Shown here one piece after another: positions 31,988 to 54,924 of a DNA stretch of 56,829 nt. A program made the translations under genes and the position numbers. Origin of the DNA: Candidatus Pacearchaeota archaeon (GTDB taxonomy: Archaea > Nanobdellota > Nanobdellia > Pacearchaeales > GW2011-AR1); assembly GCA_017609745.1 (NCBI GenBank), contig JAFCDK010000001.1, forward strand, positions 1 to 56,829, in the 5' to 3' direction. Under the pieces are notes generated by a model. The model did not search any database. It was not told the origin of the DNA and was given only the letters and a program-made list of their open reading frames with translations. How positions within the stretch are numbered: position 1 is the stretch's first letter; each line of letters starts with the position of its first letter.

Positions 31988-32147
31988 AATGAATACTGGC
32001 AAAGGGTTAATGGTTTCTGGGCTTAGAAGTCATACTGAAAATAATTTAATTTCTGTAGCAGAGCACATTGTATTAACTTTATTTTATAGATACAAAAAAA
32101 AGCTAAATTTTTACAAATAAAATATCATAGCAATCAGGTTGAATAAA

Positions 32148-34046: not shown

Positions 34047-34079
34047 TTTTCAAAAAATTAAAAGAAAAATTTAAATAAC

Positions 34080-35528
34080 ATGAAAAAATCAAAATCTAAA
34101 ATGCGGATTTTATTAATTCAACCTAATAGCACTAAAGAAGTAAATAAAGAATATGTTTCCCTCCAATATCCTATTAATTTGGGATACATCGCAGCAGTAT
34201 TAAAAAAAGAGGGCTACGAAGTTAAATTAGTAGATTTTAATGTAACTAGTTTGAAAAAACTTAATAATATAATCTTTAAATATAAACCAGAATTAATCGG
34301 AATAACTTCAATGACTTCGAGCATATATAACACTATGAATATCATTTCTAAAATTAAGAAAATTGATAAAAAAATAATAACTGTTTTAGGAGGAGTTCAT
34401 GCTTCTGCACTTCCAATAAAGACTATGGAAGAAATTAAAGATTTGGATTTTTTAGTTTTTGGAGAAGGGGAAAAAATAATTGTTGAATTAGTTAATGAAT
34501 TAAAAAACAAAAAATCTTCTTTTTCTAAAATAAAAGGGATAGTGTTTAGAAAAAAAGGGAGAATAATTAAGAATAAACCAAGAGAATTAATTGAAGATTT
34601 AAATACAATTCCTTATCCAGATAGAAATTTGTTACCTCTTAAATTATATGCTAAACAGCATGTATCAAGAGGATTTTCTCGACGGGAAATGAAAATTATT
34701 GAAATAATAACTAGTAGGGGGTGCCCCAATCATTGTATTTTTTGTGCAGGTCATATCAATTATGGCCATAGAGTTAGATTTAGGAGTTATGAAAATATTG
34801 TTGGGGAAATTACAGAGTGCATTAGAAAATATAATATAACACATGTTTCAATAGAAGATGATACTTTTATATTAAATAAAGAATTAGTAAGAAAATTATG
34901 TATTTTTTTTAAACAAAAAAAATTGACTTGGAATTGCAATGCAAGAGTAAATAATGTTAATTATGACTTATTAAAATTGATGGCAAAATCAGGATGTAAA
35001 AAAATAGCTTTTGGAGTTGAAAGTGGGAATTCAGAAATTTTGAAAAAAATTAAAAAAGGAATAACAGTAGAACAAGCAATTAAAGCAGTAAGAGATTCAA
35101 AGAAAGCAGGAATTCGGTATGTTGAATGTGATTTTATTCTTGGTTCTCATCCAGATGAAACACTAAAAACTATAAACGATTCTATAAATTTAATTTATAA
35201 ATTAATGCCAGATTTTTTAGCAATTTCTGTAATGTGCCCTTATCCTGGAACAGAAATTTATCAAATGATGATAAAAAATAAACTCCTTACTAAAAATCCT
35301 GATTGGTCACAATTCAGCCATTTTGGAGATCTTGAAAGATATGAAAAATTAAATTATCTAACTTCTGAACAAATAGTGAATCTACAAAATAAAATCATGA
35401 AAAAATATTATGGCTCTAAAAAATATATTTTTTCTCAATTAAAACAAATCAGTTCCTTAAACGAAATAAAATACTTTTTTAAAATGGCGTTTTTCTATTT
35501 AATGGAATTCGTTTTAAAGAAAAAATGA
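34080..35528 (+). CDS. cobalamin-binding (class B) radical SAM enzyme
   Basis: 482 aa. N-terminal B12-binding Rossmann (ILLIQPN..YPINLGYIAAVLKKEGYEVKLVD...GGVHASALP) and the radical SAM cluster motif RGCPNHCIFCAG. Confidence 0.8.
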   Translation: MKKSKSKMRILLIQPNSTKEVNKEYVSLQYPINLGYIAAVLKKEGYEVKLVDFNVTSLKKLNNIIFKYKPELIGITSMTSSIYNTMNIISKIKKIDKKIITVLGGVHASALPIKTMEEIKDLDFLVFGEGEKIIVELVNELKNKKSSFSKIKGIVFRKKGRIIKNKPRELIEDLNTIPYPDRNLLPLKLYAKQHVSRGFSRREMKIIEIITSRGCPNHCIFCAGHINYGHRVRFRSYENIVGEITECIRKYNITHVSIEDDTFILNKELVRKLCIFFKQKKLTWNCNARVNNVNYDLLKLMAKSGCKKIAFGVESGNSEILKKIKKGITVEQAIKAVRDSKKAGIRYVECDFILGSHPDETLKTINDSINLIYKLMPDFLAISVMCPYPGTEIYQMMIKNKLLTKNPDWSQFSHFGDLERYEKLNYLTSEQIVNLQNKIMKKYYGSKKYIFSQLKQISSLNEIKYFFKMAFFYLMEFVLKKK

Positions 35529-36322
35529 AAAAAAATAAATTATCAAAATTTCAAAAAAATTTAGATTCTCAAAATAGATTTGGATATGAGTGGGATAAAT
35601 TCGACAAAATAATTCCAGAATATGAAATACAATTTTTAAAATGGATTTATCCTCTTAAAAAAAATGATTTCAAGAATAAATCGGTTCTTGATGCGGGATG
35701 TGGAATGGGAAGAAATTCTTATTGGCCCTTAATTTACAAAGCAAAAGAAGTATTTGCTTTTGATTATGATAAAAGAACCGTTGCAGCTGCTCAAAAAAAT
35801 TTATCTAAATTCAAAAATTCAAAAATATTTTATGATTCAATTTATAACTTGAATTTTGAAAATAAATTTGATATAGTTTTTTCTATTGGGGTGATTCATC
35901 ATTTAGAAAACCCCCATAAAGCTATTCAGAAATTAGTAGATTCTGTTAAAAAAAATGGAGTAGTCTTAATATGGATTTATGGATATGAAGGAAATGAATG
36001 GATTGTTCGATATATAAATCCTATAAGAAAAATCACCTCAAAACTATCTCCATGGATTATTAATCTAATCGCTCACATTCTTTCAATCCCTCTTTATACT
36101 TATTTAAAATTTTTCCCACAAAACAAGCCTTATTTAAAACAACTTTCTAAATTTAAATTTTGGCATATTCATAGTATTACTTTTGATCAATTACTACCAA
36201 AAATAGCAAATTACTGGAAAAAAGAAGAAGCTTTAAAATTATTTGAAAATAAAGGTCTAAAAAATATAAAGATATATGCAGTAAACAATAATTCTTGGAC
36301 CATAATGGGAAACAAAAAATGA
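35525..36322 (+). CDS. class I SAM-dependent methyltransferase
   Basis: 265 aa. Motif I VLDAGCGMGRNS, post-I FDYD, and GVIHHLENP. ATGA overlap with the upstream radical SAM gene. Confidence 0.75.
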   Translation: MKKNKLSKFQKNLDSQNRFGYEWDKFDKIIPEYEIQFLKWIYPLKKNDFKNKSVLDAGCGMGRNSYWPLIYKAKEVFAFDYDKRTVAAAQKNLSKFKNSKIFYDSIYNLNFENKFDIVFSIGVIHHLENPHKAIQKLVDSVKKNGVVLIWIYGYEGNEWIVRYINPIRKITSKLSPWIINLIAHILSIPLYTYLKFFPQNKPYLKQLSKFKFWHIHSITFDQLLPKIANYWKKEEALKLFENKGLKNIKIYAVNNNSWTIMGNKK

Positions 36323-39348: not shown

Positions 39349-39849
39349 TTAATTTTTTCTAATTTCAAATTCAAATAAAATATCATCATAAATACCATTA
39401 AAGAAAATTTTTAAATATTTTTTAAAAGGAAGATATTTTTTAAATTTATTTTTATAAATAAATTTCCTTTTTTTCAAAATTAAACTTTTTTCTAGTCCAT
39501 ATTCTTTCATAAGAGATTTATCAAATGAAGATTCTGTAAAATTAATTTTATGCATTATGTTTGTCCAAAACGCATAAGAAGTTGCATGAGGGACAATTAA
39601 TGTTAATTTAGCATTATTTTTGGAGATTTTAATAATCTCTTTTAATACTTTGACAGGGAATTCTAAATGTTCAAGAATATCCTTCATATAAATTTCCTTA
39701 AAACTATTTTGTTTGAAAGGATATGGGAACTTATTAAGGTCATGGTAAATATCCGCTTTAAACGATTTATTACTATCTATATTAATCCACCCCTCCTTAT
39801 AATCTTCTCCACATCCAAAGTTAATCTTCTCCATATTTCTCCAATTCAT
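39349..39849 (-). CDS. class I SAM-dependent methyltransferase (Methyltransf_11-like)
   Basis: 166 aa. INFGCGEDYKEGWINID, with DILEHLEFP downstream. Confidence 0.6.
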   Translation of the reverse strand: MNWRNMEKINFGCGEDYKEGWINIDSNKSFKADIYHDLNKFPYPFKQNSFKEIYMKDILEHLEFPVKVLKEIIKISKNNAKLTLIVPHATSYAFWTNIMHKINFTESSFDKSLMKEYGLEKSLILKKRKFIYKNKFKKYLPFKKYLKIFFNGIYDDILFEFEIRKN

Positions 39850-43471: not shown

Positions 43472-44917
43472 ATGATGGTAGTTGGTGATACTTTCTTTAG
43501 AGGAGGGGATATAGAAACTCCCAAAATTTCTAGTTCAGAAGATTTAAACAAATCATTTAATTTTAGATATAATAACACACAAAGAGTTTCTGACATTAGT
43601 AAAGAAGTAAAAAAACCAAAAATAGTCTATGTGGGTATGAGTGCTGATTTGATACATCCAGGCCATCTTAATATAATTAATAAAGCAAAAGAGTTTGGAG
43701 AAGTAATTATTGGATTATTAACTGATAAGGCTATTGCATCTTATAAAAGACTCCCTTTTATGTCTTATGAACAAAGAAAAATTGTAATGGAAAATATAAA
43801 AGGAGTAAAACAAGTTATTCCTCAAGAAACTCTTGATTATACCCCCAATTTAAAAAAAATCAAACCAAATTATGTTATTCATGGTGATGATTGGAAGATT
43901 GGAATCCAAAAAGAAATTAGACAAAGAGTTATAGAAACTTTGAAAGAATGGGGAGGAGAATTAGTAGAGGTGCCTTATACTCAAGGGATTTCATCAACAA
44001 AACTTAATAATGCATTAAACGAAATAGGGATTACTCCCGAAATTCGTATAAAAAGATTAAGAAGGCTTTTAGAATCAAAAGAAATTGTTAGAATATTAGA
44101 AGTACATAATGGATTAACCGCACTTATAGCCGAAAATATCAGTATAACAAAAGAAGGAAAGATAAAGGAGTTTGATGGAGTCTGGATAAGTAGTTTAACT
44201 GATTCAATATCAAAAGGAAAACCAGATATTGGTTTTGTTGATTTAACATCAAGATTAAATACAATAAACCAGGTATTAGAATCAACTACCAAACCAATTA
44301 TTTTAGATGGAGACAATGGAGGAGAATCAGAGCATTTTGAATATATGGTGAGAACAATAGAAAGATTAGGTGTTTCTGCAGTTATAATTGAGGACAAAAC
44401 AGGATTAAAAAAGAATTCTTTATTTGGAACAGAAGTTGAACAAATACAAGAAGAAGTGTCAAAATTTTCAGATAAAATTTCTAGAGGTAAAAAAGCACAA
44501 TTAACAGATGAGTTTATGATTATAGCAAGGATTGAAAGTTTAATTTTAAAAAAAGGACTTTATGAAGCGCTTATCAGAGCAAAAGCATATATTGAAGCAG
44601 GAGCTGATGCTATAATGATTCACAGTAAAGAAAAGGAGCCAACAGAAATTATTGAATTTTGTAAAGAATATTCTAAATTTGAAAATAAAGTGCCATTAGT
44701 AGTTGTTCCTACAACTTACAATTATATTATTGAAAAAGAATTTATAGAACTTGGTGTTAATATAGTTATATATGCAAATCATTTACTAAGAAGCGCATAT
44801 CCAGCTATGAAAAAAACAGCAGAATCAATTCTATTAAATGAAAGAGCCTATGAAGCTGAGGAATTTTGTTTACCAATAAAAGATTTATTAAATTTAATAC
44901 CCGAAAGAAAAGAATAA
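43472..44917 (+). CDS. bifunctional cytidylyltransferase / phosphoenolpyruvate mutase (Fom1-like architecture)
   Basis: 481 aa. The N-terminus has the HxGH cytidylyltransferase motif ([25 protein letters not shown] ... GISSTKL). The C-terminus is ICL/PEP-mutase superfamily ([51 protein letters not shown]). Confidence 0.8.
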
Positions 44918-44961
44918 ATTATATAAAAATTTAAATATTCTTTTCTCACATAAAATAGGAT

Positions 44962-46080
44962 ATGAAATGTGAAGAGTTATCAGAAATATTTAAAAAAAAT
45001 GATTTGACCTTTTTTACAGGAGTTCCTGATTCTATATTTAAAGATTGGATGAAATTTTTAGCAGATGGAAATGGTTTAACAAACATTATTGCATGTAATG
45101 AATGTGAAGCAACTGCAATTGCTTCTGGATATCATTTAGCTACAAATAAGGTGGGAATTGTGTATATGCAAAATTCTGGTCTTGGAAAATGTGTTAATCC
45201 TTTGACTTCCTTAATCTCAAAAGAAGCGTATGCTATACCCACTCTTTTGATGATTGGTTGGAGAGGAGAACCAGAAAAAAAAGACGAGCCACAACATAAA
45301 ATGATGGGGAGAATTATGTTGCCTTTGCTTGACACATTAGAAATTCCTTATCAAATCCTACCCAATGATATAAAACAAGCCGAACAAGTGATAAAAGAAA
45401 TGAAAGAACTAGCAGAACAAAAAAATTATGCTTCTGCAATTATAATCAAAAAAGACACTTTAGAAGAGTATGTTGCTCAAACTTTTGTTAAAACAAATTA
45501 TGAAATGTCAAGAGAAGATGCAATTAAGCTCATAGTGGACAATATGGATGGCGAAGAAGTAATTGTGTCTACTACAGGGAAAACGTCAAGAGAATTATTT
45601 GAATATCGGGTTGCAAGACAAGAAATACCAAGAGATTTTTATACAGTGGGGAGTATGGGGTGTTCAGCATCAATTGCAAACAGCATAGCTCTACAAAAAC
45701 CAGAAAAAAAGATTTTTATTTTTGATGGAGATGGTGCAGTTTTAATGCAAATGGGAGCATTATCAACAATTGGGCACTATAAAGCTAAAAATCTTTATCA
45801 TGTTATATTTGATAATACTTGTCATGATTCAACTGGGGGGCAACCAACTGTATCATCTACAGTTGATTTCAAACAAATAGCTTTGAGTTGTGGATATAGA
45901 AATGCTATAAAAATAGAAACAAAAGATGCTCTAATCAAAACAGTAAAAGAAACAAAGGAAAAACAAGGACCCAATTTATTTATTGTTAAAGTAAATAAGG
46001 GCGCAAGGCAAGATTTAGGAAGACCAACAACGACCCCCATTGAAAATAAAGAAGCTTTTATGCAATTCTTGCAAAAATGA
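44962..46080 (+). CDS. phosphonopyruvate decarboxylase (ThDP-dependent)
   Basis: 372 aa, the typical size. FFTGVPDS, GLGKCVNPLTSL, GSMGCSASIANSIAL, and FDGDGAVLMQMG..HVIFDN (ThDP/Mg motif). Directly downstream of the PEP mutase gene. Confidence 0.8.
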   Translation: MKCEELSEIFKKNDLTFFTGVPDSIFKDWMKFLADGNGLTNIIACNECEATAIASGYHLATNKVGIVYMQNSGLGKCVNPLTSLISKEAYAIPTLLMIGWRGEPEKKDEPQHKMMGRIMLPLLDTLEIPYQILPNDIKQAEQVIKEMKELAEQKNYASAIIIKKDTLEEYVAQTFVKTNYEMSREDAIKLIVDNMDGEEVIVSTTGKTSRELFEYRVARQEIPRDFYTVGSMGCSASIANSIALQKPEKKIFIFDGDGAVLMQMGALSTIGHYKAKNLYHVIFDNTCHDSTGGQPTVSSTVDFKQIALSCGYRNAIKIETKDALIKTVKETKEKQGPNLFIVKVNKGARQDLGRPTTTPIENKEAFMQFLQK

Positions 46081-46143
46081 GGCAACAAGAATTTTTTGGT
46101 TTTGAAAGTATAAAAAATTTCTAAATGTTGACTTCAAATTAAA

Positions 46144-47193
46144 TTAAGAATACTTATTTTTAAACAACTCATCATACTCATTACCTAAATGTTCTTTAAA
46201 AAATTCTCTTGCTTGTTTTAGCATTTGTCTGACTGGCAATTGATTATGGCAATTTTCTTCGCAAGTTCCACATTCTATGCAGGAATAAGGATCTGGCTTT
46301 CCTTTCATGGATTTTCTAAATCTTCCTAATGCTTGTTCTAGTAATCCAATTTTAATTGCATAATTGTATAGATAAAGAACATTTCCTATTGGAATCTTTT
46401 GCGGACAGGTTGGCTCGCAATAATGACATGATTGGCACATTCCTTCTAAACCTTTGATACTATTTCTTAATTCTTCTCTTTCTGATTCTATTAGTAGGGG
46501 GGCTTCTGCATTTTCAACATTTTCTCTAACTTGCTCTATAGTTATCATTCCTGGAATAACAGTTGAAACAGGATGTTCAAGCTCCCATTTTAATGCAAGG
46601 TTTGTTTTTTGAATATTTCCGCCATCTAAAGGTTTCATAGCTATATAACCAATTCCTTTTTCTTGAGCTTCATAAACTGCTTTAAACTCTCTTTTAATTG
46701 GATTAAAAGGAAATTGTAAAACCCCCCAATGCCCCAATTCTAAGGCCTTTAATGCAACATCTTCTCTGTGTGTGCTAATTCCTAAATGTTTTATCTTTCC
46801 TTCTTGTTTAGCTTGTTTTAAAAAATCCAAAGAACCATTTTCTATTAATTGCTTTAAAGTCTCAAGAGAATCAACACAATGATTTTGATAAACATCAATA
46901 TATTCTCTTTTCAAAGCAACTAAACTTGCTTCTAAATCCTTTCTTATTTTTTCAGGAGTTCTTTCTTTAGTTTTAGTCGCAATAATTGCCTCTCTTGGTA
47001 GGTATAAACCAAATTTTTTTTCACTATCACCATAAGAACTTGCATGAGAAGTATCAAAAAAATTAATTCCTTGGTTAATAGCCGCCTTTAATACTTTTTC
47101 AGCTTGTTCATTTGAAACTCCTTGTAAAGGAATGCCGCCAAAACCAATAACAGAAACTTTTAGACCTGTTTTACCCAATTCTCTAAATTTCAT
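46144..47193 (-). CDS. aldo/keto reductase with C-terminal 2x[4Fe-4S]-type cysteine motifs
   Basis: MKFRELGKTGLKVSVIGFGG (the Met at 47193 gives the canonical AKR N-terminus), FFDTSHASSYGDSE, HLGISTH. C-terminal CQSCHYCEPTCP and CIECGTCEENC. Confidence 0.75.
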   Translation of the reverse strand: MKFRELGKTGLKVSVIGFGGIPLQGVSNEQAEKVLKAAINQGINFFDTSHASSYGDSEKKFGLYLPREAIIATKTKERTPEKIRKDLEASLVALKREYIDVYQNHCVDSLETLKQLIENGSLDFLKQAKQEGKIKHLGISTHREDVALKALELGHWGVLQFPFNPIKREFKAVYEAQEKGIGYIAMKPLDGGNIQKTNLALKWELEHPVSTVIPGMITIEQVRENVENAEAPLLIESEREELRNSIKGLEGMCQSCHYCEPTCPQKIPIGNVLYLYNYAIKIGLLEQALGRFRKSMKGKPDPYSCIECGTCEENCHNQLPVRQMLKQAREFFKEHLGNEYDELFKNKYS

Positions 47194-47414
47194 ACGAATA
47201 AAGATTTTAAACATTTAAAAAGATTATTGAGATTTACCTTACACCCATAGTTACATAATTATTTAAATATAAAATTTCCATTACTAGCATGAAAAAAGTA
47301 GTTGTATTTGAAATTAGTGAATAAGAGCTTGAGATTATTCTTGAAAAGATATTTAATCCAACAAGAATGAAAAATAATTCGAGATTATTAACAGAAGAAA
47401 ACTTAAAAAATCTA

Positions 47415-48182
47415 TTAATCAGAATATATCAAAAAGGTTTCATGTTTCTTTTTCACCCAATCGCCAAGTTCGTACCAATTAAATCCTTCAAAATGTTTAG
47501 TTGGTTTTTTCCAATCACCATATTTTTTTTCTAAGTATTTTTTAGAAGATGAAGGAACTTTTAATTTAAGACCATAAAAATTAATAGTTTTTAAATTAAG
47601 AAAATAGTTGGCTGGAACATCTAAATAATGAATAGTCATTTTATAGAAAGGGGATACAAAAATTTTAACAATTTTATAGATTAATGGTTTGAATTTTTTA
47701 GGTAAATATTTTAATAAATAGAATAAATTGATTTTAATTAAATACCTTAGCCCATTTGATTTATCAAATTTGATTTTCCCATAATAGGATACACTAAGTA
47801 ATCTGCCTATTTTTATAATGATCTTTCCTGTAAAATTTCCTCCAACCGGTTTTTCTAATAATATTTTCTTATGGTCTTTTGGATTGTATCTCATTAATTG
47901 AACATTAATTTTTATTAAATTTTTATCAATATTCATTACATCCCATAAAAAATAAACTGAAAATCCTTTTTTTTCTAACTCGTTTGTTAATTTCTTTTTT
48001 ATAAATTTGCTATCTACATATTCTGCAAGAATTCCTAAATCAATATCATCATCCCAAGGGATAATTTTTTTGTCTCTAATTGCTCCTAACAAAGTTCCAA
48101 ATTCTAACCAGAAAGGGATTTTATTATTATCAAAAACTTCTTTTACTTCCTCTAAATATTCTAATGCAAGCCTTTCGTCCAT
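47415..48182 (-). CDS. LicD-family phospho-headgroup transferase
   Basis: 255 aa. FWLEFGTLLGAIRDKKIIPWDDDIDLGI is the LicD nucleotidyltransferase-fold motif. YL.KKYGDW near the C-terminus. Confidence 0.75.
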   Translation of the reverse strand: MDERLALEYLEEVKEVFDNNKIPFWLEFGTLLGAIRDKKIIPWDDDIDLGILAEYVDSKFIKKKLTNELEKKGFSVYFLWDVMNIDKNLIKINVQLMRYNPKDHKKILLEKPVGGNFTGKIIIKIGRLLSVSYYGKIKFDKSNGLRYLIKINLFYLLKYLPKKFKPLIYKIVKIFVSPFYKMTIHYLDVPANYFLNLKTINFYGLKLKVPSSSKKYLEKKYGDWKKPTKHFEGFNWYELGDWVKKKHETFLIYSD

Positions 48183-48474: not shown

Positions 48475-51468
48475 ATGAAAAAAGTGGTATGGAAAAATAA
48501 GACTAATGAACAACTATGTATTACAATTCCAAAGAATTCTGGAATTAAAGATGGAGATATTGTAGAATTAAAAAAATCAACTATAAAAAAGATAGCTTAT
48601 ATTGGAATAGTTGGAGATCTTTTTCATTATGGTCATCTTCAGTCAATAAAATTTGCTAAATCTATAGCAGATTATCTAATATGTGGAGTATTAACTGATA
48701 ATGCAGTGGAAAAATATAGAACAAAACCAATTGCAAACCTTCAAGAAAGAAAAGCAGTTATATCAAGTTTGAGTTATGTTGATAGAGTAATAACTCAACA
48801 TAGTAGAGACCATACTGAAAACTTAAAAAAAATACATGAGGAATTTCCAGATGCAAAATTAATTCTTGTTCATGGAGCTGATTTAAATGAAATTCCAGGT
48901 TCAGAATATATTAGAAAAATAGGTGGAGAAACTATAAAACACCCTTATTATGCGAGACTCTCAACAGTAAAAATAGTTAATCAAATAGTTGAAAATCAAA
49001 ATAAATTTAAAGATATACTTAATTTTTCATCTTTAATTAAAGGAGAATATAAAATTGATTCTGAATATAAAAAAGGAAATAAAATACTTGTCTCTACTAA
49101 AGCAGATACATTGAAGACATTAAAAGATTTACTTAAGAAATCTAAAATTGAAAAATTATTTGTATTTAGTACTTCTGATTGGAAAAATAACAAAGATAGA
49201 ATATTAAAAAACATAAAAGAAAAATTCTCTCCAGAAAAAATCATAATTAGAAGTTCTACATTAAAGGAAGACACTCTAAATACTTCAATGGCTGGATGTT
49301 TTAAAAGCATACTCAATATAAACCCAGATGATATAAAACAAACAGAAATAGCAATAAAAAAGGTAATAGACTCTTATACTAATAAAAAATCAGAGAGTTC
49401 TTTTAACCAAATTCTTATACAATCATATACACAAGATGTTGTAATGAGTGGGGTTATTTTTACAAGGATGATAGATACAAATGCTCCTTATTATCTTATA
49501 AATTATGATGATTCTACTGGAAAGACAGATACTGTTACAAAAGGAATTGAATATAAAACAATAAAAATTTCAAGATTTGTTGGTTTAGATAAAGTGCCAT
49601 ATAAATTCAGAAATCTTTTGGATTCTGTAAAGGAAATTGAATCAATTATTCCAGATATAAATTTAGATATAGAATTTGCTATTAACAAAAAAAAAGAAAT
49701 AATTATTTTTCAAGTTAGACCTTTAATAAAAAATTCATTAATTGATATAAATGATAATTTGATTAAAAATAAAATAGAGACTTTAATTAATAAATTTCAG
49801 GAATTATCAAAACCTAAAAATTCTCTTGCTGGGGAAAAAAATATTTTTGCCGATATGCCAGATTGGAATCCAGCCGAGATACTTGGCCACGCTCCAAACC
49901 ATCTAGATTATTCTCTTTATAATTATATTATAACAGAAGAGGTTTGGCATGAAGCAAGAACTTCTCAGGGGTATTATAATGTGGCTCCTGCAAAATTAGT
50001 TGTCTTATTTGGAAACAAACCATATATAGATGTAAGAAATAGTTTTAATTCATTTATACCAAATACGCTCTCTCCAAATTTAAGAAGTAAATTAATCCAA
50101 TTCTATTTAAATAAACTTAAAAAAAATCCAGAATTACAAGATAAAGTTGAGTTTGAAATTTTATATACTTGTTATGATTTGAGTTTTAATGAAAGATCAA
50201 ACGAGTTGGTGGCTGCTGGTTTTTCAAAAGACGAAATCATCGAATTAAAAAATGCTTTAATAAATTTAACAAATAATCTAATAACTAATTCAAAAAAGTC
50301 TATTCAAGAAGATTTAAAATCTCTTAGAGAAATGGAGAGAAATGAAGAAAAAATAAAAGAAACTCTGAAATTACCATATACCCATTCTATAAATAATTTG
50401 TTAGATAATGCAAAGTTTCTACTTGATGATTGTAAAAAAAAGGGGACAGTTCAATTTTCAAGATTAGCAAGATTAGCTTTTATAGGAAAAATATTTTTGA
50501 AAAGCCTTATTGTCAAAAAAGTAATCGACGAGGAATTTTATAACAAATTTATGAATTCAATAAACACAATAGCCACTGAATTAAAACAAGATTTTAAATT
50601 ATTAAAGATAAACAAAATAACAAAACAAGATTTCATAAAAAAATATGCTCATCTAAGACCAGGCACTTATAATATTGTAAGTTTAAGATATGATTCAAAT
50701 TCAGAATTTCTCAAAGTATTTGATTTTGAACTATCTGATTCTAAACCTGTTAATTTCATATTAAATACAAAAACTGAAGAAAAGATAACTAAAATTTTGA
50801 TGGAAGAAGGATTAGAATTTAATGCATCAGAATTACTAGAATTTGTAAAAACATCAATTAAAGCCAGAGAACTTGCTAAATTCAAATTTACAAAAAATTT
50901 AAGTGATGCAATTGAGTTAATAGCTTTGGCAGGAAGGGAAATGGGATTTACCAGACAAGAATTAGCAAAGTTAGATATTAAAGACTTGTTTTTAAAAAGA
51001 GAAGAGAGTAGGGAAGAATTAACAAAAAGTTGGAAAAAAATTATCTTTTCTAAAATGGATGAAGAAAATATAGATAAATTTTTGGAACTACCTCCATTAA
51101 TCTTTTCTGAGGAGGATTTTCATATTATAAAATATTATTCACCCCAACCAAATTATATAACTCAAAAAAAGATAAAATCTAAACTAGTGAAATTAGATAC
51201 AAATAGCTCAGCCAAATCTGTTGATATTGATGCTAAAATTGTGATGATTGAGAATGCAGATCCAGGGTATGATTGGATATTTACAAGAAATCCTGCCGGC
51301 TTAATAACAAAATATGGTGGCGTTGCTTCTCATATGTCTATAAGATGTGCAGAGTTTGATATTCCTGCTGCAATCGGTTGTGGCATTATATTTGATAATC
51401 TAATTAATTTTAAAGAAATTATTTTAGATTGTGGAATTAAAAAAATAACTCCTTATTTAGGAGAATAA
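48475..51468 (+). CDS. tri-domain enzyme: HxGH cytidylyltransferase + PPDK_N-type ATP-grasp + PEP-utiliser phosphohistidine swivel domain (Cj1418 glutamine-kinase-like core)
   Basis: 997 aa. GIVGDLFHYGHLQSIKFAK...RLSTVKI (TagD-like). IIRSSTLKEDTLNTSMAGCFKSILNI...VMSGVIFTR...IIIFQVRPL (PPDK_N). IENADPGYDWIF..AGLITKYGGVASHMSIRCAEFDIPAAIGCG (swivel His). Confidence 0.7.
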   Translation: MKKVVWKNKTNEQLCITIPKNSGIKDGDIVELKKSTIKKIAYIGIVGDLFHYGHLQSIKFAKSIADYLICGVLTDNAVEKYRTKPIANLQERKAVISSLSYVDRVITQHSRDHTENLKKIHEEFPDAKLILVHGADLNEIPGSEYIRKIGGETIKHPYYARLSTVKIVNQIVENQNKFKDILNFSSLIKGEYKIDSEYKKGNKILVSTKADTLKTLKDLLKKSKIEKLFVFSTSDWKNNKDRILKNIKEKFSPEKIIIRSSTLKEDTLNTSMAGCFKSILNINPDDIKQTEIAIKKVIDSYTNKKSESSFNQILIQSYTQDVVMSGVIFTRMIDTNAPYYLINYDDSTGKTDTVTKGIEYKTIKISRFVGLDKVPYKFRNLLDSVKEIESIIPDINLDIEFAINKKKEIIIFQVRPLIKNSLIDINDNLIKNKIETLINKFQELSKPKNSLAGEKNIFADMPDWNPAEILGHAPNHLDYSLYNYIITEEVWHEARTSQGYYNVAPAKLVVLFGNKPYIDVRNSFNSFIPNTLSPNLRSKLIQFYLNKLKKNPELQDKVEFEILYTCYDLSFNERSNELVAAGFSKDEIIELKNALINLTNNLITNSKKSIQEDLKSLREMERNEEKIKETLKLPYTHSINNLLDNAKFLLDDCKKKGTVQFSRLARLAFIGKIFLKSLIVKKVIDEEFYNKFMNSINTIATELKQDFKLLKINKITKQDFIKKYAHLRPGTYNIVSLRYDSNSEFLKVFDFELSDSKPVNFILNTKTEEKITKILMEEGLEFNASELLEFVKTSIKARELAKFKFTKNLSDAIELIALAGREMGFTRQELAKLDIKDLFLKREESREELTKSWKKIIFSKMDEENIDKFLELPPLIFSEEDFHIIKYYSPQPNYITQKKIKSKLVKLDTNSSAKSVDIDAKIVMIENADPGYDWIFTRNPAGLITKYGGVASHMSIRCAEFDIPAAIGCGIIFDNLINFKEIILDCGIKKITPYLGE

Positions 51469-51469
51469 A

Positions 51470-52972
51470 ATGTGGATTGTAATCTCTCAAAGAAATGATT
51501 TGAATCAATATGGAGATAGAATGGATACTCTCGAAAACAATTATATAAATTATTTTGAAAAATTTGGAATAAAACTCATTCCAATTTCTAATTCAACAAA
51601 AAATATTAATTCTTACTTTGAAAAATTTCCAATTTCAGGTATTATCTTATCTGGAGGAAATGATATAAACCCTGAATTATATAACAAAAAAATTAACGAA
51701 TCTGAAAAGAAAAAATTATTTATCTCTAATGAAAGAGATGAAACAGAAAAAGAACTTTTGAGAATTGCCATAAAAAAGAAAATTCCTGTATTAGGAATTT
51801 GTAGAGGAATGCAATTTATTAATGTTTTTTTTAAAGGTAAATTGATTAATATTAAAGAAGAGAATCAGTCCGAGATAGGGCATCTTGCTACAGAGCACAC
51901 CATCAAAATAATTAATAATAAAGCCAAAAAATTATTAAATAATGAATCAAGAATAAATTCTTACCATGGGTATGGAATAAATAAAAAAACATTATCTTCA
52001 GAATTAGAAATTTTTGCACAAACCGATGATGCATTGATAGAGGGATTATACCATCCTTTATTCCCGATAGTTGGAATTCAATGGCATCCAGAGAGAAAAA
52101 GTCCTGATGAAAGAATAAATAACAAACTAATAGAAGCCTTTTTGAAAAAAGAATTATTTTGGAAAATAAAAAATAAAAAAATGAAAACTATAATTCTTGC
52201 AGCGGGTATGGGAACAAGATTGGGTAAATATAACTCTAATTTGCCCAAATGTTTATTAGAATTTAATAAGAAAACATTGATAGAAAGGCAAATTGAAACA
52301 CTAAGAGCTTGTGGACTAAATGATATAATTGTTGTAAAAGGTTATATGTCTAAAAAACTTCAAATGCCTAATGTTAAATTCTATTTTAATAAAGATTTTG
52401 CAAACACAAATATGGTTGAAACTTTATTTTGTGCTGAAAAAGAAATGGATGATGAACTCTTGGTTTGTTATTCAGATATTCTTTATGATAAAGAAATAAT
52501 AAACAAAATTACATCTAGTCATGTCGATATAGGGGTAGTGGTAGATAAAGATTATTGGGATTATTGGAATGCAAGAATGGATGAACCTGAAAAAGATATG
52601 GAAAGTCTTGTGATTGATGAACAGGGCAAAATAATTGAAATGGGAGATACAACTTGCTCTAGAGATAAAGCTAAGGTAAGATATGTTGGGTTAATTAAAT
52701 TTTCAAAAAAAGGCGTTCAGGCCTTAAAAAAAGTTTATCAGGAGAATAAAGAAAAATACTTTGATAAAGACGAACAATGGTTAAAATCTAAATCATTTAA
52801 AAAAGCTTATATGACCTCTATGTTACAAGCATTGATTAATGAGGGTTATAGAGTAGATCCAATAATAATTTCAAGAGGATGGATGGAATTTGACACAGAA
52901 GAAGATTATGAAAAAGCAAATCTATGGTTAAAAGATGGTTCTATAAAAAGATTTATTAATATTGAAAAATGA
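51470..52972 (+). CDS. bifunctional peptidase-C26/class-I-glutamine-amidotransferase-like hydrolase + LicC/NTP_transf_3-type nucleotidyltransferase (Cj1417-like + Cj1416-like)
   Basis: 500 aa. N-terminus: GIILSGGNDINP, RDETE, PVLGICRGMQFINV, VGIQWHPE. C-terminal half starts MKTIILAAGMGTRLG..LPKCLL, followed by VCYSDILYD. It starts 1 nt after the upstream stop. Confidence 0.7.
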   Translation: MWIVISQRNDLNQYGDRMDTLENNYINYFEKFGIKLIPISNSTKNINSYFEKFPISGIILSGGNDINPELYNKKINESEKKKLFISNERDETEKELLRIAIKKKIPVLGICRGMQFINVFFKGKLINIKEENQSEIGHLATEHTIKIINNKAKKLLNNESRINSYHGYGINKKTLSSELEIFAQTDDALIEGLYHPLFPIVGIQWHPERKSPDERINNKLIEAFLKKELFWKIKNKKMKTIILAAGMGTRLGKYNSNLPKCLLEFNKKTLIERQIETLRACGLNDIIVVKGYMSKKLQMPNVKFYFNKDFANTNMVETLFCAEKEMDDELLVCYSDILYDKEIINKITSSHVDIGVVVDKDYWDYWNARMDEPEKDMESLVIDEQGKIIEMGDTTCSRDKAKVRYVGLIKFSKKGVQALKKVYQENKEKYFDKDEQWLKSKSFKKAYMTSMLQALINEGYRVDPIIISRGWMEFDTEEDYEKANLWLKDGSIKRFINIEK

Positions 52973-54249
52973 GCATTTTAGAATTATTTTTAACAATAAC
53001 TGCAGGAATCTTAATCTTAGAATTATTATCCCAAGCAACAGTAAATTTTTGTAGAAATAAATTTCAGTGGTTAATTACTCAAAAAAAAGACGAAACCCCC
53101 AAAATTGACAAAAAGAAAATTAAAAAAAAATATTTTGAAAAGGGTTTTGATTCCGAATTAGGATGGGTTAGAAAACCAAATACCACTGGTTATGACAAAC
53201 GATTTTTTCAATTTAATGATAATAAATGGGGCTATAAAAAAAGTAAATGGACAATAAACAGATTTGGAGCAAGATTAAATCCAGGTCATGAAAAATTAAA
53301 AAAATCTATGATTTCTTGTTATGGAGATTCTTTTACATTTTCAAGACAGGTTAATGATAATGAAACTTGGGAATATCAGTTATCTAAAAAAACAGGGTTT
53401 AATGTACTTAATTTTGGAGTAGGTAATTATGGACTTGATCAAGCACTGTTAAGGCTACAAAGAGAATTTCCAAAAAATCCTACAAAAATTGTGATTATGG
53501 CAGTTGTTCCAGATACAATAAGCAGGATTCTAAGTTGTTGGAAACATTTTTATGAATATGGAAATATTTGGGCATTTAAACCAAGATTTAAGTTAAATAA
53601 TTTTGGGAATCTTCAGATTATACCAAATATAATTGATAAGCCAGAAAAATTTTTCAAATTAAAACAATATATGGATAGATTAAGAAAACAGGATTTTTTT
53701 TATAAAAAGAAATTTAAAAAAGAGATTATTCAGTTTCCTTATCTTTTCTTTTTAATGAAAAATCCAATAAGAAACTTAAAAATTATATTTGGTGTTATTA
53801 AACATACATTTTTATCTAATTTTTTTAAAAAATATAAAATTATGGAACCTTCTGATTGGCATATAACAAAATTTATTAGAAAAACCAATTTGAGATGGAC
53901 AGTTAAATTGTATAAAGATCCACAAGCAGTCAAATTGATAGAAAAATTAATTGATAAGTTTTTAAAAGAGAGTAAAAAATTTAATTTTAAACCAATCTTT
54001 ATTTTTCTTCCCCAAAAAAATGAAGTTTTATATTATAAAAATAAAGGAAAATTTTATATGCCCTTTTTTAAGAAAATAAGCAGAAAAATTGAAACAATTG
54101 ATATTACCACACCACTCCTTCACCATCCAAATTTAAATTCTCTTTATTCTGAACCCACAATTTATGGAGCACACTATAGCAAAAAAGGAAATGCCTTTGT
54201 TGGTAATATAATTTATCAAAAACTTAAAGAAAAGGGATACTTAAATTAA
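52969..54249 (+). CDS. membrane-anchored SGNH/GDSL-like hydrolase or O-acyltransferase accessory protein
   Basis: 426 aa. N-terminal TM helix. Block I CYGDSFTF, then NFGVGNYGLDQALLRL. ATGA-type overlap with the upstream gene. The family call is tentative. Confidence 0.35.
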   Translation: MSILELFLTITAGILILELLSQATVNFCRNKFQWLITQKKDETPKIDKKKIKKKYFEKGFDSELGWVRKPNTTGYDKRFFQFNDNKWGYKKSKWTINRFGARLNPGHEKLKKSMISCYGDSFTFSRQVNDNETWEYQLSKKTGFNVLNFGVGNYGLDQALLRLQREFPKNPTKIVIMAVVPDTISRILSCWKHFYEYGNIWAFKPRFKLNNFGNLQIIPNIIDKPEKFFKLKQYMDRLRKQDFFYKKKFKKEIIQFPYLFFLMKNPIRNLKIIFGVIKHTFLSNFFKKYKIMEPSDWHITKFIRKTNLRWTVKLYKDPQAVKLIEKLIDKFLKESKKFNFKPIFIFLPQKNEVLYYKNKGKFYMPFFKKISRKIETIDITTPLLHHPNLNSLYSEPTIYGAHYSKKGNAFVGNIIYQKLKEKGYLN

Positions 54250-54267: not shown

Positions 54268-54924
54268 TTAATATTTCCGATAAATCCAATACTTTGATAA
54301 GTAATAAATATGGCACAATATTCCAAAGAATAACAATACCCAAAGATTAGAAAAAATAACCGCTATACTTACTAATATTCTATGCATTCCAGAATCAAAT
54401 AATATACTCCAATGTTTCTTTTTAAAAAATTTATCCTCAAATTCCAAATTTATCTTTTTTTTATTTGGAAACTCTAATTCTCCTGTAATAGATGTTATAA
54501 TTACCATAAGCAAACCATACATCGCAAAGAATCCAATCCATGCAGAACCCATAAAACATCCGGCAAAAAATATTAATAAAGGAAAACTTATTGCCCCAAC
54601 TGTTTCATCTAAGTACCCCCCATAATTTTTTTTTCTTAGATTTTTCTGTTTCTTTCTATTAAAACGCGCAACTTCTCCATCAGATAAATCTAATATTATT
54701 GCTAAATTAACTAATAATCCAGCAATTATCCAAAGTTTGAGATACATCAAATAAATAACTAAAAAATCTGCAAAAAAACTCAAAAGCGTGATAAAATTGG
54801 GATGGAATTTTAATTTAACAAAAAGAGTGCTAATAAGAGCAGATATTTTTCTATAAAAATAAAAAGCAAAATATCCTTGATCAGGTGTTTTTTGCAACCC
54901 CTTTATTTGTGAATATATTGACAT
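54268..54924 (-). CDS. divergent CDP-alcohol phosphatidyltransferase-family membrane protein
   Basis: 218 aa and polytopic. DLSDGEVAR ... GGYLDETVG corresponds to DGxxAR..GxxxDxxxD, but with a longer basic spacer and Gly in place of the last Asp. Confidence 0.45.
   Translation of the reverse strand: MSIYSQIKGLQKTPDQGYFAFYFYRKISALISTLFVKLKFHPNFITLLSFFADFLVIYLMYLKLWIIAGLLVNLAIILDLSDGEVARFNRKKQKNLRKKNYGGYLDETVGAISFPLLIFFAGCFMGSAWIGFFAMYGLLMVIITSITGELEFPNKKKINLEFEDKFFKKKHWSILFDSGMHRILVSIAVIFSNLWVLLFFGILCHIYYLSKYWIYRKY

What the first reader, a model, noticed from the sequence alone, without database searches (positions are those of the whole stretch)
48475..52972. Two fusion proteins reconstitute the Cj1418/Cj1417/Cj1416 domain triad: candidate archaeal cytidine-diphosphoramidate (phosphoramidate) pathway
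Seen in the sequence:
- ORF 48475..51468 joins a TagD-type HxGH cytidylyltransferase, a PPDK_N ATP-grasp module (IIRSSTLKEDTLNTSMAGCFKS ... FQVRPL) and a phosphohistidine swivel domain (GGVASHMSIRCAEFDIPAAIGCG).
- One nucleotide later, ORF 51470..52972 joins a peptidase-C26/GATase-1 domain (GICRGMQ, IQWHPE) to a LicC-type nucleotidyltransferase (IILAAGMGTRLG).

Established knowledge: in Campylobacter jejuni capsule O-methyl-phosphoramidate synthesis, these three catalytic families act in sequence.
- Cj1418 is an L-glutamine kinase (PEP-utilising fold with a phosphohistidine).
- Cj1416 is a CTP:phosphoglutamine cytidylyltransferase.
- Cj1417 is a gamma-glutamyl-CDP-amidate hydrolase that yields cytidine diphosphoramidate.

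Inference: the tight fusion and adjacency inside an archaeal glycan island suggests a compact P-N headgroup activation module. The window has no Cj1415-like P-loop kinase and no Cj1421/1422-like transferase. It does have an additional HxGH cytidylyltransferase domain. So the chemistry may differ from the bacterial route, for example direct use of CDP-amidate by the neighbouring LicD or CDP-alcohol-transferase homologs. I know of no description of this pathway in archaea.
Basis: partly seen in the sequence, partly recalled or inferred. Interest (0 to 1): 0.9.

Follow-up and report, generated by a model that had tools for sequence, protein, structure and literature searches.

The report
Archaeal glutamine-kinase phosphoramidate module, fused variant
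Two adjacent fusion genes in this DPANN-type archaeal glycan island encode the three enzyme families that Campylobacter uses to make cytidine diphosphoramidate, in a widespread but uncharacterised variant that has an extra cytidylyltransferase domain and no 3'-kinase.

Summary
ORF 48475-51468 combines an HxGH cytidylyltransferase with a full-length glutamine-kinase-family protein (NCBIfam NF004508, 854 bits against a cut-off of 501). ORF 51470-52972 combines a Peptidase_C26 domain with an intact Cys-His-Glu triad and a LicC-like nucleotidyltransferase.

- In 84 loci from Archaea and Bacteria the order is kinase, then C26 hydrolase, then nucleotidyltransferase, often followed by an APS-kinase-like gene. 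From my knowledge, this is the Cj1418-to-Cj1415 order.
- Fusions elsewhere link every pair of these families.

1. The pathway is not new to archaeal genomes. JGI already names close homologues "glutamine kinase", and a Borg preprint proposes the same cluster. At least 581 matching stretches occur in species-representative genomes, including Haloferax elongans.
2. A PEP mutase/phosphonopyruvate decarboxylase block lies immediately upstream. It is an inserted, separable module.
3. The extra N-terminal cytidylyltransferase is a recurring add-on, supplied by either of two unrelated folds. It is mostly exclusive with the APS-kinase-like gene. The HxGH class tends to sit with CDP-donor phosphotransferases (LicD, CDP-alcohol type). 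Its substrate is unknown.

No biochemistry exists for any of this. Verdict: new variant of a known kind, of moderate interest.

The parts
48475..51468 (+). Fusion protein of 997 aa: HxGH cytidylyltransferase joined to a glutamine-kinase-family enzyme.
   Evidence: Pfam domains. NF004508 scores 854 bits against a cut-off of 501 over residues 202-992. More than 100 DPANN homologues share this architecture at 48-64% identity, and JGI names some of them 'glutamine kinase'.
48586..48999 (+). N-terminal HxGH (PF01467) cytidylyltransferase domain, residues about 38-175. This is the extra domain relative to C. jejuni.
   Evidence: H51/H54 and S162 are conserved in 113 homologues. It is 35% identical (2e-23) to the window's own PepM-fused CT domain. 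The best full-length PDB match is the Fom1 CyTase domain 5x3d.
49078..51450 (+). Glutamine-kinase-family core: PPDK_N ATP-grasp, a family-specific middle region, and a phosphohistidine swivel domain with H953 at 51331-51333.
   Evidence: R/S/S, E/D and H (H754 of the domain query) are invariant in a 45-sequence alignment. 1538 representative clusters match with E<1e-30.
51470..52972 (+). Fusion protein of 500 aa: Peptidase_C26 (gamma-glutamyl hydrolase type) joined to a LicC-like nucleotidyltransferase.
   Evidence: The fused form is rare (about 12 proteins). In most relatives the two parts are separate adjacent genes in the same order.
51470..52147 (+). C26/GATase-1 domain with Cys111 (51800-51802), His206 and Glu208.
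   Evidence: Best NCBIfam family is NF045546, gamma-glutamyl-CDP-amidate hydrolase: 100.5 bits, full-length alignment, but cut-off 250. The triad aligns with 3fij.
52181..52969 (+). NTP_transf_3/LicC-like nucleotidyltransferase domain (motif LAAGMGTRLG at residue 243). It occupies the Cj1416 position.
   Evidence: LicC 1jyk matches at 1.4e-17. In the NJ tree it groups with the nucleotidyltransferases that follow the C26 gene, apart from PntC-like and N-terminally fused ones. Homologue P0127, 53% identical, is named 'L-glutamine-phosphate cytidylyltransferase' by JGI.
52969..54249 (+). ORF3: membrane-anchored SGNH-fold protein, translationally coupled to ORF2 by an ATGA overlap. It is a conserved partner of the module with unknown role.
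   Evidence: AF2 model pLDDT 91.9. Foldseek matches CgnD, GDSL esterases, DltD and PatB. Ser121 and His402 are invariant. N-terminal transmembrane helix. Linked to the kinase module in 12 loci.
54268..54924 (-). CDP-alcohol phosphotransferase-like membrane protein, a candidate user of the CDP-linked product.
   Evidence: Pfam CDP-OH_P_transf at 3e-05. The motif is DxxDGxxAR...GxxxD with the 4th Asp replaced by Gly and a 6-aa insertion. The family is present in 9/14 HxGH-CT-kinase loci.
47415..48182 (-). LicD-family phosphotransferase, divergently transcribed from ORF1. It is a candidate transferase for this module, the phosphonate module, or both.
   Evidence: Pfam LicD at 7.2e-15. A LicD/CT-kinase divergent pair occurs without PepM in L089. 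It is 33% identical to the LicD that ends the L010 module. LicD occurs only in HxGH-CT-kinase loci.
43472..47214 (.). Neighbouring, separable phosphonate block: HxGH-CT fused to PEP mutase (43472-44917 +), phosphonopyruvate decarboxylase (44962-46080 +), and an aldo-keto reductase with 4Fe-4S motifs (46144-47214 -).
   Evidence: TIGR02320 scores 398 bits and TIGR03297 457 bits, both above cut-off. The block is absent from the syntenic relative L089. PepM lies near the kinase in only 2 of 84 loci.

Best explanation
The operon 48475-54249, with the flanking LicD and CDP-alcohol-phosphotransferase-like genes, is a DPANN-archaeal version of the glutamine-kinase route to an activated phosphoramidate.

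Inferred steps, by homology to Cj1418, Cj1416 and Cj1417:
1. [quoted passage not shown]
2. The LicC-like domain of ORF2 joins N-phosphoglutamine to CMP from CTP, giving CDP-L-glutamine.
3. The C26 domain of ORF2 (Cys111/His206/Glu208) hydrolyses the gamma-glutamyl amide. This releases glutamate and cytidine diphosphoramidate.

The C26-nucleotidyltransferase fusion is a simple fusion of two genes that are adjacent, in the same order, in relatives.

More speculative steps:
- There is no Cj1415-like 3'-kinase in the window. CDP-amidate may therefore be used directly, with release of CMP, by a CDP-donor phosphotransferase (LicD and/or the CDP-alcohol-phosphotransferase-like protein). This would place a phosphoramidate on a surface glycan or a lipid carrier.
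- The membrane-anchored SGNH protein would act at a late, possibly extracytoplasmic step.
- The extra Fom1-like HxGH domain on the kinase carries out a second cytidylyl transfer on an unknown substrate: N-phosphoglutamine by channelling, free phosphoramidate, or a later intermediate.

What is shown: domain identities, conserved catalytic residues, synteny and fusions. What is inferred: all of the chemistry.
For: Family identity:
- NF004508 equivalog at 854 bits against a cut-off of 501; PEP synthase, PPDK, PigC and Rph models score 40 bits or less.
- A syntenic Pseudomonas protein scores 919 bits on the same model.
- Best NCBIfam family for the C26 domain is gamma-glutamyl-CDP-amidate hydrolase (100.5 bits). 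This is higher than syntenic orthologues in L002 (88.3) and Pseudomonas (81.7).
- The catalytic triad is intact.
- JGI names homologues 'glutamine kinase' (P0013 and others, 52-60% identity) and 'L-glutamine-phosphate cytidylyltransferase' (P0127, 53% identity).

Synteny:
- Kinase, then C26, then nucleotidyltransferase in about 70 of 84 loci.
- An APS-kinase-like gene lies within 10 kb in 23/29 loci with an unfused kinase.
- Haloferax elongans has kinase, C26, nucleotidyltransferase and APS_kinase in that order.
- cj1415 lies downstream of cj1416 (PMC3907429).

Fusions linking the families:
- APSK-CT-kinase (P0100).
- NTP_transf_3-kinase and kinase-C26.
- C26-nucleotidyltransferase (this window).

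The nucleotidyltransferase domain groups with those that follow the C26 gene, not with PntC-like enzymes.

Direct-use hypothesis:
- No APS kinase in the window.
- CDP-OH_P_transf in 9/14 loci of this class; LicD only in this class.
- A LicD/CT-kinase divergent pair without PepM in L089.
- A TagF-like gene follows the module on a Vibrio plasmid.

The HxGH motif is conserved in 113 homologues.
Against: - No C. jejuni Cj1416-1418 sequence could be obtained, so orthology rests on curated profiles, source names and synteny.
- The C26 domain is below the NF045546 cut-off (100.5 against 250).
- No curated model for Cj1416 turned up.
- The nucleotidyltransferase domain's best solved relative is LicC (a phosphocholine enzyme), and PGAP calls such proteins 'phosphocholine cytidylyltransferase family'.
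- The window is only 57 kb, so a 3'-kinase could lie elsewhere in the genome. Some clade members do have one (L002, L009, L011, L018).
- The window's CDP-alcohol-phosphotransferase-like protein lacks the 4th Asp of the family motif.
- LicD could serve the phosphonate block, because it is followed on its strand by the reductase gene.
- The second cytidylyltransferase has no place in the known pathway.
- Phosphoramidate has not, to my knowledge, been reported chemically in any archaeon.
Confidence: 0.68

Rival explanations
1. The enzymes are the same, but the end product differs. The module makes CDP-L-glutamine or another CDP-linked amide. A CDP-donor phosphotransferase transfers that whole phospho-amino-acid to a glycan or lipid, as C. 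difficile does with CDP-N-methylthreonine. The C26 domain would then trim it afterwards or act as a regulator. Alternatively, the kinase phosphorylates an amide other than free glutamine.
For: - CDP-donor transferases (LicD, CDP-OH_P_transf, TagF-like) accompany the fused classes.
- There is precedent for a CDP-amino acid as a phosphotransferase donor (bioRxiv 10.64898/2026.02.12.704994).
- There are two cytidylyltransferases per system.
- Substrate specificity cannot be read from sequence.
Against: - The C26 hydrolase is almost always present next to the nucleotidyltransferase and is fused to it here. This fits consecutive soluble steps.
- The C26 domain's best family is the CDP-amidate-forming hydrolase.
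- The nucleotidyltransferases that follow the C26 gene form one clade across all system classes, which suggests a common function.
Confidence: 0.17
2. The cytidylyltransferase domains and LicD belong to the neighbouring phosphonate pathway: PepM and Ppd, then HEP or AEP, then CMP-phosphonate, then LicD. The LicC-like domain would be a PntC-type phosphonate cytidylyltransferase, and the kinase and C26 parts would be unrelated passengers.
For: - PepM-CT, Ppd and a reductase lie directly upstream.
- The kinase-fused CT is 35% identical to the PepM-fused CT and resembles Fom1 CyTase.
- PF12804 and PF01467 enzymes are the usual phosphonate activators (PMC6697681).
- A Borg cluster and L051 also place PepM-CT next to the kinase.
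Against: - PepM is absent from 82 of 84 kinase loci, including the syntenic relative L089. L089 keeps LicD, CT-kinase, C26, nucleotidyltransferase and ORF3.
- The nucleotidyltransferase domain is separate from the PntC-like sequences fused to an aminotransferase.
- PepM already carries its own CT domain.
Confidence: 0.06
3. ORF1 is a PEP synthase/PPDK-type or antibiotic-phosphotransferase-type enzyme, and ORF2 is a generic PuuD-like amidohydrolase fused to a sugar-1-phosphate nucleotidylyltransferase. There is no shared pathway.
For: Pfam sees only generic PPDK_N, PEP-utilizers, Peptidase_C26 and NTP_transferase domains. RefSeq annotations of homologues are equally generic.
Against: - ORF1 scores 854 bits on NF004508 but 40 bits or less on PEP synthase, PPDK and Rph models.
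- PuuD scores 52.9 bits against 100.5 for the CDP-amidate hydrolase model.
- Synteny is strict and fusions occur between all partners.
Confidence: 0.02

Closest known systems
Campylobacter jejuni MeOPN precursor pathway: Cj1418 L-glutamine kinase, Cj1416 CTP:phosphoglutamine cytidylyltransferase, Cj1417 gamma-glutamyl-CDP-amidate hydrolase, Cj1415 CDP-amidate 3'-kinase
   Same: - The three protein families are the same.
- The gene order is the same (kinase, C26, nucleotidyltransferase).
- The catalytic His and the Cys-His-Glu triad are retained.
- The module sits in a surface-glycan locus.
- Relatives add the APS-kinase family as a neighbouring gene or a fusion.
   Different: - An extra HxGH cytidylyltransferase is fused to the kinase.
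- C26 and the nucleotidyltransferase are fused.
- No 3'-kinase is present in the window.
- The partners are LicD, a CDP-alcohol-phosphotransferase-like protein and an SGNH protein. Whether Cj1421/1422-type transferases are present could not be tested.
- No methyltransferase lies inside the operon.
- The host is archaeal.
- The C26 domain scores below the curated cut-off of the Campylobacter-type model.
Cobalt Borg genes 308-311, a candidate MeOPN cluster in Methanoperedens extrachromosomal elements (bioRxiv 10.1101/2024.11.05.622173)
   Same: The setting is archaeal. It has the kinase, hydrolase and cytidylyltransferase, plus an adjacent PEP-mutase-cytidylyltransferase fusion. It was proposed from structure prediction only.
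   Different: The Borg genes are described as separate genes. The HxGH-kinase and C26-nucleotidyltransferase fusions, the SGNH/LicD/CDP-alcohol partners and the DPANN host are not described there. I did not have the Borg sequences to compare.
Nucleotidyl activation in phosphonate tailoring: Fom1 CyTase-PepM, and PntC-PepM with LicD (Rice et al. 2019, PMC6697681)
   Same: The two alternative cytidylyltransferase folds are the same (PF01467 or PF12804). Each is fused N-terminally to the enzyme that makes the unusual phosphorus bond, and LicD-type transferases act downstream. The kinase-fused CT is 35% identical to the window's PepM-fused CT.
   Different: The partner enzyme is a P-N-forming kinase, not the P-C-forming mutase. 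Kinase systems keep a second, free nucleotidyltransferase.
C. difficile type A flagellin glycan pathway (CDP-threonine, FtaC/FtaD)
   Same: A CDP-linked amino-acid-type donor and a CDP-donor phosphotransferase decorate a surface glycan.
   Different: It has no glutamine kinase and no C26 hydrolase. The donor is kept intact rather than hydrolysed to CDP-amidate.

Membership tests
L-glutamine kinase family (Cj1418 type; NCBIfam NF004508/PRK05849) | Full-length match to the family profile above its curated cut-off, and not to PEP synthase, PPDK or Rph profiles | tested here: met
   854 bits against a cut-off of 501, residues 202-992 on profile positions 7-786 of 789. Other PEP-utilising models score 40 bits or less.
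L-glutamine kinase family (Cj1418 type; NCBIfam NF004508/PRK05849) | ATP-grasp (PPDK_N) N-terminal part and a C-terminal swivel domain with the phosphorylatable histidine | tested here: met
   H953 lies in GGVASHMS. The histidine is invariant in 45 diverse family members.
L-glutamine kinase family (Cj1418 type; NCBIfam NF004508/PRK05849) | Cj1418 itself is a member of the same profile or clade as the window protein | not tested
   No C. jejuni sequence could be retrieved: the best 80 genome loci held none and the Raushel papers are not held. The only indirect link is JGI's name 'glutamine kinase' for homologues at 52-60% identity.
L-glutamine kinase family (Cj1418 type; NCBIfam NF004508/PRK05849) | [quoted passage not shown] | not testable with these tools
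   Needs an enzyme assay.
gamma-Glutamyl-CDP-amidate hydrolase (Cj1417 type; NCBIfam NF045546) | Score above the curated cut-off of the equivalog model | tested here: not met
   100.5 bits against a cut-off of 250. It is still the best-scoring family, aligned over 1-212 on 1-184 of 198. Syntenic orthologues in L002 (88.3) and Pseudomonas (81.7) are also below it, so the cut-off appears to cover only close Campylobacter-type sequences.
gamma-Glutamyl-CDP-amidate hydrolase (Cj1417 type; NCBIfam NF045546) | Class-I amidotransferase/C26 fold with a Cys-His-Glu triad | tested here: met
   Peptidase_C26 at 1.9e-35. Cys111, His206 and Glu208 align with 3fij.
gamma-Glutamyl-CDP-amidate hydrolase (Cj1417 type; NCBIfam NF045546) | Encoded between the kinase and the nucleotidyltransferase | tested here: met
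   This is the order in the window and in about 70 of 84 loci.
CTP:phosphoglutamine cytidylyltransferase (Cj1416 type) | NTP_transf_3/LicC-like fold with the GxGxR(L) signature, encoded after the C26 gene | tested here: met
   Motif LAAGMGTRLG. The domain lies in the clade of nucleotidyltransferases that follow the C26 gene, separate from PntC-like and N-terminally fused ones.
CTP:phosphoglutamine cytidylyltransferase (Cj1416 type) | Match to a curated family model, or direct similarity to Cj1416 | not tested
   No specific NCBIfam model appeared among the hits. The only indirect link is JGI's name 'L-glutamine-phosphate cytidylyltransferase' for P0127, 53% identical.
Cytidine diphosphoramidate 3'-kinase (Cj1415 type; APS-kinase family) | An APS_kinase-family gene in the locus | tested here: not met
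   None in the 57-kb window. The only weak hit is an ABC ATPase. It is present in relatives (P0100 fusion; L047).
Complete C. jejuni MeOPN system | Cj1419/1420-type methyltransferases and Cj1421/1422-type phosphoramidate transferases | not tested
   No reference sequences were available. SAM methyltransferases exist at 35525-36322 and 39349-39849 but not in the operon. Relatives have methyltransferases inside or beside the module.
PntC/LicC phosphonate or phosphocholine tailoring | Nucleotidyltransferase that travels with PepM/Ppd (or choline kinase) and groups with PntC or LicC | tested here: not met
   PepM is absent from 82 of 84 kinase loci and from the syntenic L089. The nucleotidyltransferase domain is separate from PntC-like sequences fused to an aminotransferase. 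LicC is nevertheless the nearest solved structure by sequence.

The most novel reading that the evidence does not exclude
DPANN archaea, and by homology marine Thaumarchaeota and some haloarchaea, decorate their surface glycans or lipids with phosphoramidate (P-N) groups by a route that skips the 3'-phospho-CDP-amidate cofactor. CDP-amidate would be handed directly to LicD or CDP-alcohol-type phosphotransferases. The extra Fom1-like cytidylyltransferase fused to the kinase would perform a second, undescribed cytidylylation, for example of free or methylated phosphoramidate. This would define a distinct branch of P-N biochemistry that parallels nucleotidyl activation of phosphonates.
Probability: 0.22. 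Interest if true: 0.8.

Novelty: new variant of a known kind. Interest (0 to 1): 0.55.

Why it matters
Phosphoramidate on glycans has been studied mainly in Campylobacter. If this module does what its Campylobacter counterpart does, P-N surface chemistry is far more widespread than that. At least 581 matching stretches occur in species-representative genomes, and 1538 protein clusters match at E<1e-30. The carriers include abundant uncultured archaea and a cultured Haloferax.

The fused variants also pose a clear enzymological question. What is the second cytidylyltransferase for, and why does it largely replace the 3'-kinase? This can be tested directly with recombinant proteins. The parallel with PEP-mutase fusions points to a general logic for activating unusual phosphorus groups.

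Tried and rejected
- **C. jejuni sequences.** I tried to obtain Cj1416-1418 for direct alignment and phylogeny.
  - The genome-contig scan returned only the best 80 of at least 581 relatives, none from Campylobacter.
  - Cluster look-ups of ten proteins of about 780 aa gave no Campylobacter names.
  - The Raushel papers are not held.
  - A search for 'PRK05849' found nothing.
- **Kinase in the window.** I looked for a Cj1415-like kinase. The only Walker-A ORF in the window apart from Cdc6 is an ABC ATPase.
- **N-terminal 37 residues of ORF1.** I considered that they form an AbrB-like domain. There is no Pfam support, they are not conserved in homologues, and the idea was dropped.
- **PepM link.** I considered that PepM is functionally tied to the kinase module. 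This was rejected as a general rule (2 of 84 loci; absent from syntenic L089).
- **Nitrosopumilus context.** Looking up the genomic context of the Nitrosopumilus ORF3 homologue P0408 failed because it is not on record.
- **ORF3 fold.** The fold search shows only a generic SGNH fold and gives no functional clue.
- **Window LicD.** It is only 24% identical to the L089 LicD, so orthology of the divergent LicD is not established. It is 33% identical to the L010 one.

Full report
**Observation.** Both ORFs exist exactly as described. ORF1 (48475-51468, 997 aa) carries three Pfam domains: CTP_transf_like (residues 48-137), PPDK_N (240-336) and PEP-utilizers (921-986). ORF2 (51470-52972, 500 aa) carries Peptidase_C26/GATase (16-208) and NTP_transf_3 (241-358). 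One base separates the TAA stop of ORF1 from the ATG of ORF2. The host is archaeal: the window encodes PolD DP2 and DP1 and Cdc6. G+C is 25-30%. The nearest homologues come from Woesearchaeota and Nanoarchaeota MAGs.

**Identity of the parts.**
- *Kinase core.* Residues 202-992 of ORF1 match NCBIfam NF004508 (PRK05849, an equivalog still named 'hypothetical protein') at 854 bits against a cut-off of 501. PEP synthase, PPDK, PigC/RedH and rifamycin phosphotransferase models score 40 bits or less.
- *C26 domain.* Its best NCBIfam family is NF045546, gamma-glutamyl-CDP-amidate hydrolase, at 100.5 bits over the full length. That is below the cut-off of 250, and PuuD scores 52.9. The C26 genes that occupy the same position in a DPANN relative and in Pseudomonas score 88 and 82 bits. 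The cut-off therefore seems to cover only Campylobacter-like sequences. Cys111, His206 and Glu208 align with the triad motifs of Lin1909, which answers the second refutation test.
- *Nucleotidyltransferase domain.* It is LicC-like (1jyk, 1.4e-17).
- *Source names.* JGI's product names for close homologues are 'glutamine kinase' (P0013 and others) and 'L-glutamine-phosphate cytidylyltransferase' (P0127, 53% identical).
- *Limit.* I could not retrieve Cj1416-1418 themselves. The link to the Campylobacter enzymes rests on profiles, names and synteny.

**Comparative evidence.** The kinase family is very large.
- A full phmmer scan gave 1538 representative clusters with E<1e-30.
They include DPANN lineages, a marine group I thaumarchaeote, Haloferax elongans ATCC BAA-1513, and many bacteria such as Pseudomonas, Legionella, Cohnella, Marinobacter, Lachnospiraceae and CPR.

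I called ORFs in 84 loci and scanned them with HMMs built in-session.
- The order kinase, then C26, then LicC-like nucleotidyltransferase holds in about 70 loci. An APS-kinase-like gene often follows or precedes it.
- From my knowledge, C. jejuni transcribes cj1418c, 1417c, 1416c and 1415c in the same order. That cj1415 lies downstream of cj1416 is stated in PMC3907429.
- In H. elongans, Pfam confirms kinase, C26, nucleotidyltransferase and APS_kinase in that order.

Fusions tie the families together:
- APS_kinase-HxGH-kinase (P0100).
- NTP_transf_3-kinase and kinase-C26.
- C26-nucleotidyltransferase (this window and about 11 others).

In an NJ tree the window's nucleotidyltransferase domain sits inside the clade of those that follow the C26 gene. 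It is separate from PntC-like sequences fused to an aminotransferase, and from the nucleotidyltransferase domains fused to the kinase.

**What differs from Campylobacter.**
1. *An extra cytidylyltransferase.* The HxGH domain on the kinase is conserved. H51, H54 and S162 are retained in 113 homologues.
   - Among loci with at least 5 kb on both sides, all 14 HxGH-kinase systems and all 12 NTP_transf_3-kinase systems still have the free nucleotidyltransferase after C26. These systems therefore have two nucleotidyltransferases where the known pathway needs one.
   - The add-on comes in two unrelated folds, PF01467 or PF12804. These are the same two folds found fused to PEP mutase (PMC6697681).
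   - The window's kinase-fused domain is 35% identical to its own PepM-fused domain. Its best full-length solved relative is the Fom1 CyTase domain, a hydroxyethylphosphonate cytidylyltransferase.
2. *The add-on and the 3'-kinase are largely alternative.* An APS-kinase-like gene lies within 10 kb in 23/29 loci with an unfused kinase, against 5/26 loci with a fused one. Fisher's test gives p = 1e-5, but the fused classes form only a few clades in the kinase tree, so this overstates independence. The window has no such kinase.
3. *CDP-donor phosphotransferases travel with the fused classes.*
   - CDP-OH_P_transf is present in 9/14 HxGH-class loci.
   - LicD is present only in the HxGH class.
   - A TagF-like gene follows the module on a Vibrio plasmid.
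   - The syntenic relative L089 keeps LicD (divergent), CT-kinase, C26, nucleotidyltransferase and ORF3, without any PepM.

It remains an inference. The window's CDP-alcohol-type protein lacks the fourth Asp of the motif, and its LicD is not clearly orthologous to the L089 one.
4. *ORF3.* It is a membrane-anchored SGNH-fold protein. Ser121 and His402 are invariant. It has more than 1000 unnamed homologues, including some from Nitrosopumilus. It is tightly linked to the module and its role is unknown.

**The neighbouring phosphonate genes.** The block at 43472-47214 encodes HxGH-CT fused to PEP mutase, phosphonopyruvate decarboxylase, and an aldo-keto reductase with Fe-S motifs. The first two score above their curated cut-offs. 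Comparison with L089 shows this block, together with the glycosyltransferase, DegT and FemAB-like genes, to be an insertion between the flippase gene and LicD. PepM lies near the kinase in only 2 of 84 loci. A Borg cluster shows the same neighbourhood. I therefore treat it as a second, separable decoration module that may share LicD.

**Novelty.** The pathway is known from C. jejuni.
- Automated annotation already labels DPANN homologues with the pathway names.
- A preprint proposes a MeOPN-like cluster in archaeal Borgs.
- I found no paper that reports phosphoramidate in an archaeon, or that discusses the fused architectures, the second cytidylyltransferase or its relation to the 3'-kinase. 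The library is incomplete, however.

I class the finding as a new variant of a known kind.

**Confidence.**
- About 0.7 that the two ORFs make a CDP-activated phosphoramidate as in Campylobacter.
- About 0.35 that the product is used directly by LicD or CDP-alcohol-type enzymes.
- The role of the HxGH domain is open.

Noticed in passing
window 43472-47214: A phosphonate block: HxGH cytidylyltransferase fused to PEP mutase, phosphonopyruvate decarboxylase, and an aldo-keto reductase with two 4Fe-4S motifs on the minus strand downstream of LicD. No AEP transaminase is adjacent, so the product may be hydroxyethylphosphonate-type, as in the Fom1 route. The block is absent from the syntenic relative L089.
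   Followed up: partly
window 32139-36322: Asparagine synthase (AsnB-type), a B12-binding radical SAM enzyme and a class I SAM methyltransferase lie in a row inside the glycan island. The radical SAM enzyme scores on HpnJ, BchE and PhpK-like P-methyltransferase models, all below cut-off. This may be a C- or P-methylation step.
   Followed up: no
window 52969-54249 (ORF3): A highly conserved family (44-62% identity, more than 1000 homologues) that is entirely unannotated. It is a membrane-anchored SGNH fold found in DPANN, Thaumarchaeota (Nitrosopumilus) and bacteria, and is usually next to the glutamine-kinase module.
   Followed up: partly
L036, L037, L041, L023, L031, L033 and others (for example L037 8105-9989): Bacterial systems with an APS-kinase-like gene carry a conserved pair: hypA (no family match) and hypB (weak Formyl_trans_N). 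They often also have a Sulfatase/alkaline-phosphatase-superfamily protein of about 590 aa. Folate-cycle genes lie beside the module in the P0127 locus and in L005. These are candidate late-step enzymes of unknown role.
   Followed up: partly
L067, L076, L080, L083, L084, L086: Lachnospiraceae and other Clostridia encode kinase-C26 fusion proteins (about 1010-1024 aa) with no nucleotidyltransferase nearby. This would predict free phosphoramidate rather than a CDP-linked product.
   Followed up: no
L047 7503-14448 (Haloferax elongans ATCC BAA-1513): A cultured haloarchaeon carries a sulfatase-like gene, nucleotidyltransferase-kinase, C26, nucleotidyltransferase and APS_kinase in a row. This makes it a tractable organism in which to look for archaeal phosphoramidate.
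   Followed up: partly
L005 18055-20119; L006 15798-17512; P0127 locus; L088 4421-6826: Sulfate-activation or sulfotransfer genes recur next to the module (CysD/CysN, ATP sulfurylase with HIT, a sulfotransferase). This raises the question of whether some APS-kinase-like genes there serve sulfation rather than phosphorylation of CDP-amidate.
   Followed up: no
window 12193-12963: A serine recombinase (Resolvase plus Recombinase domains) lies near an HTH protein (9331-10128) and unannotated ORFs. This may be an integrated element, about 35 kb from the finding.
   Followed up: no
window 54268-54924 and homologues: In the CDP-alcohol-phosphotransferase-like proteins linked to the module, the fourth Asp of the DxxDGxxAR...GxxxDxxxD motif is variable (D, H, G or N). 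The window's copy has Gly and a 6-residue insertion.
   Followed up: partly
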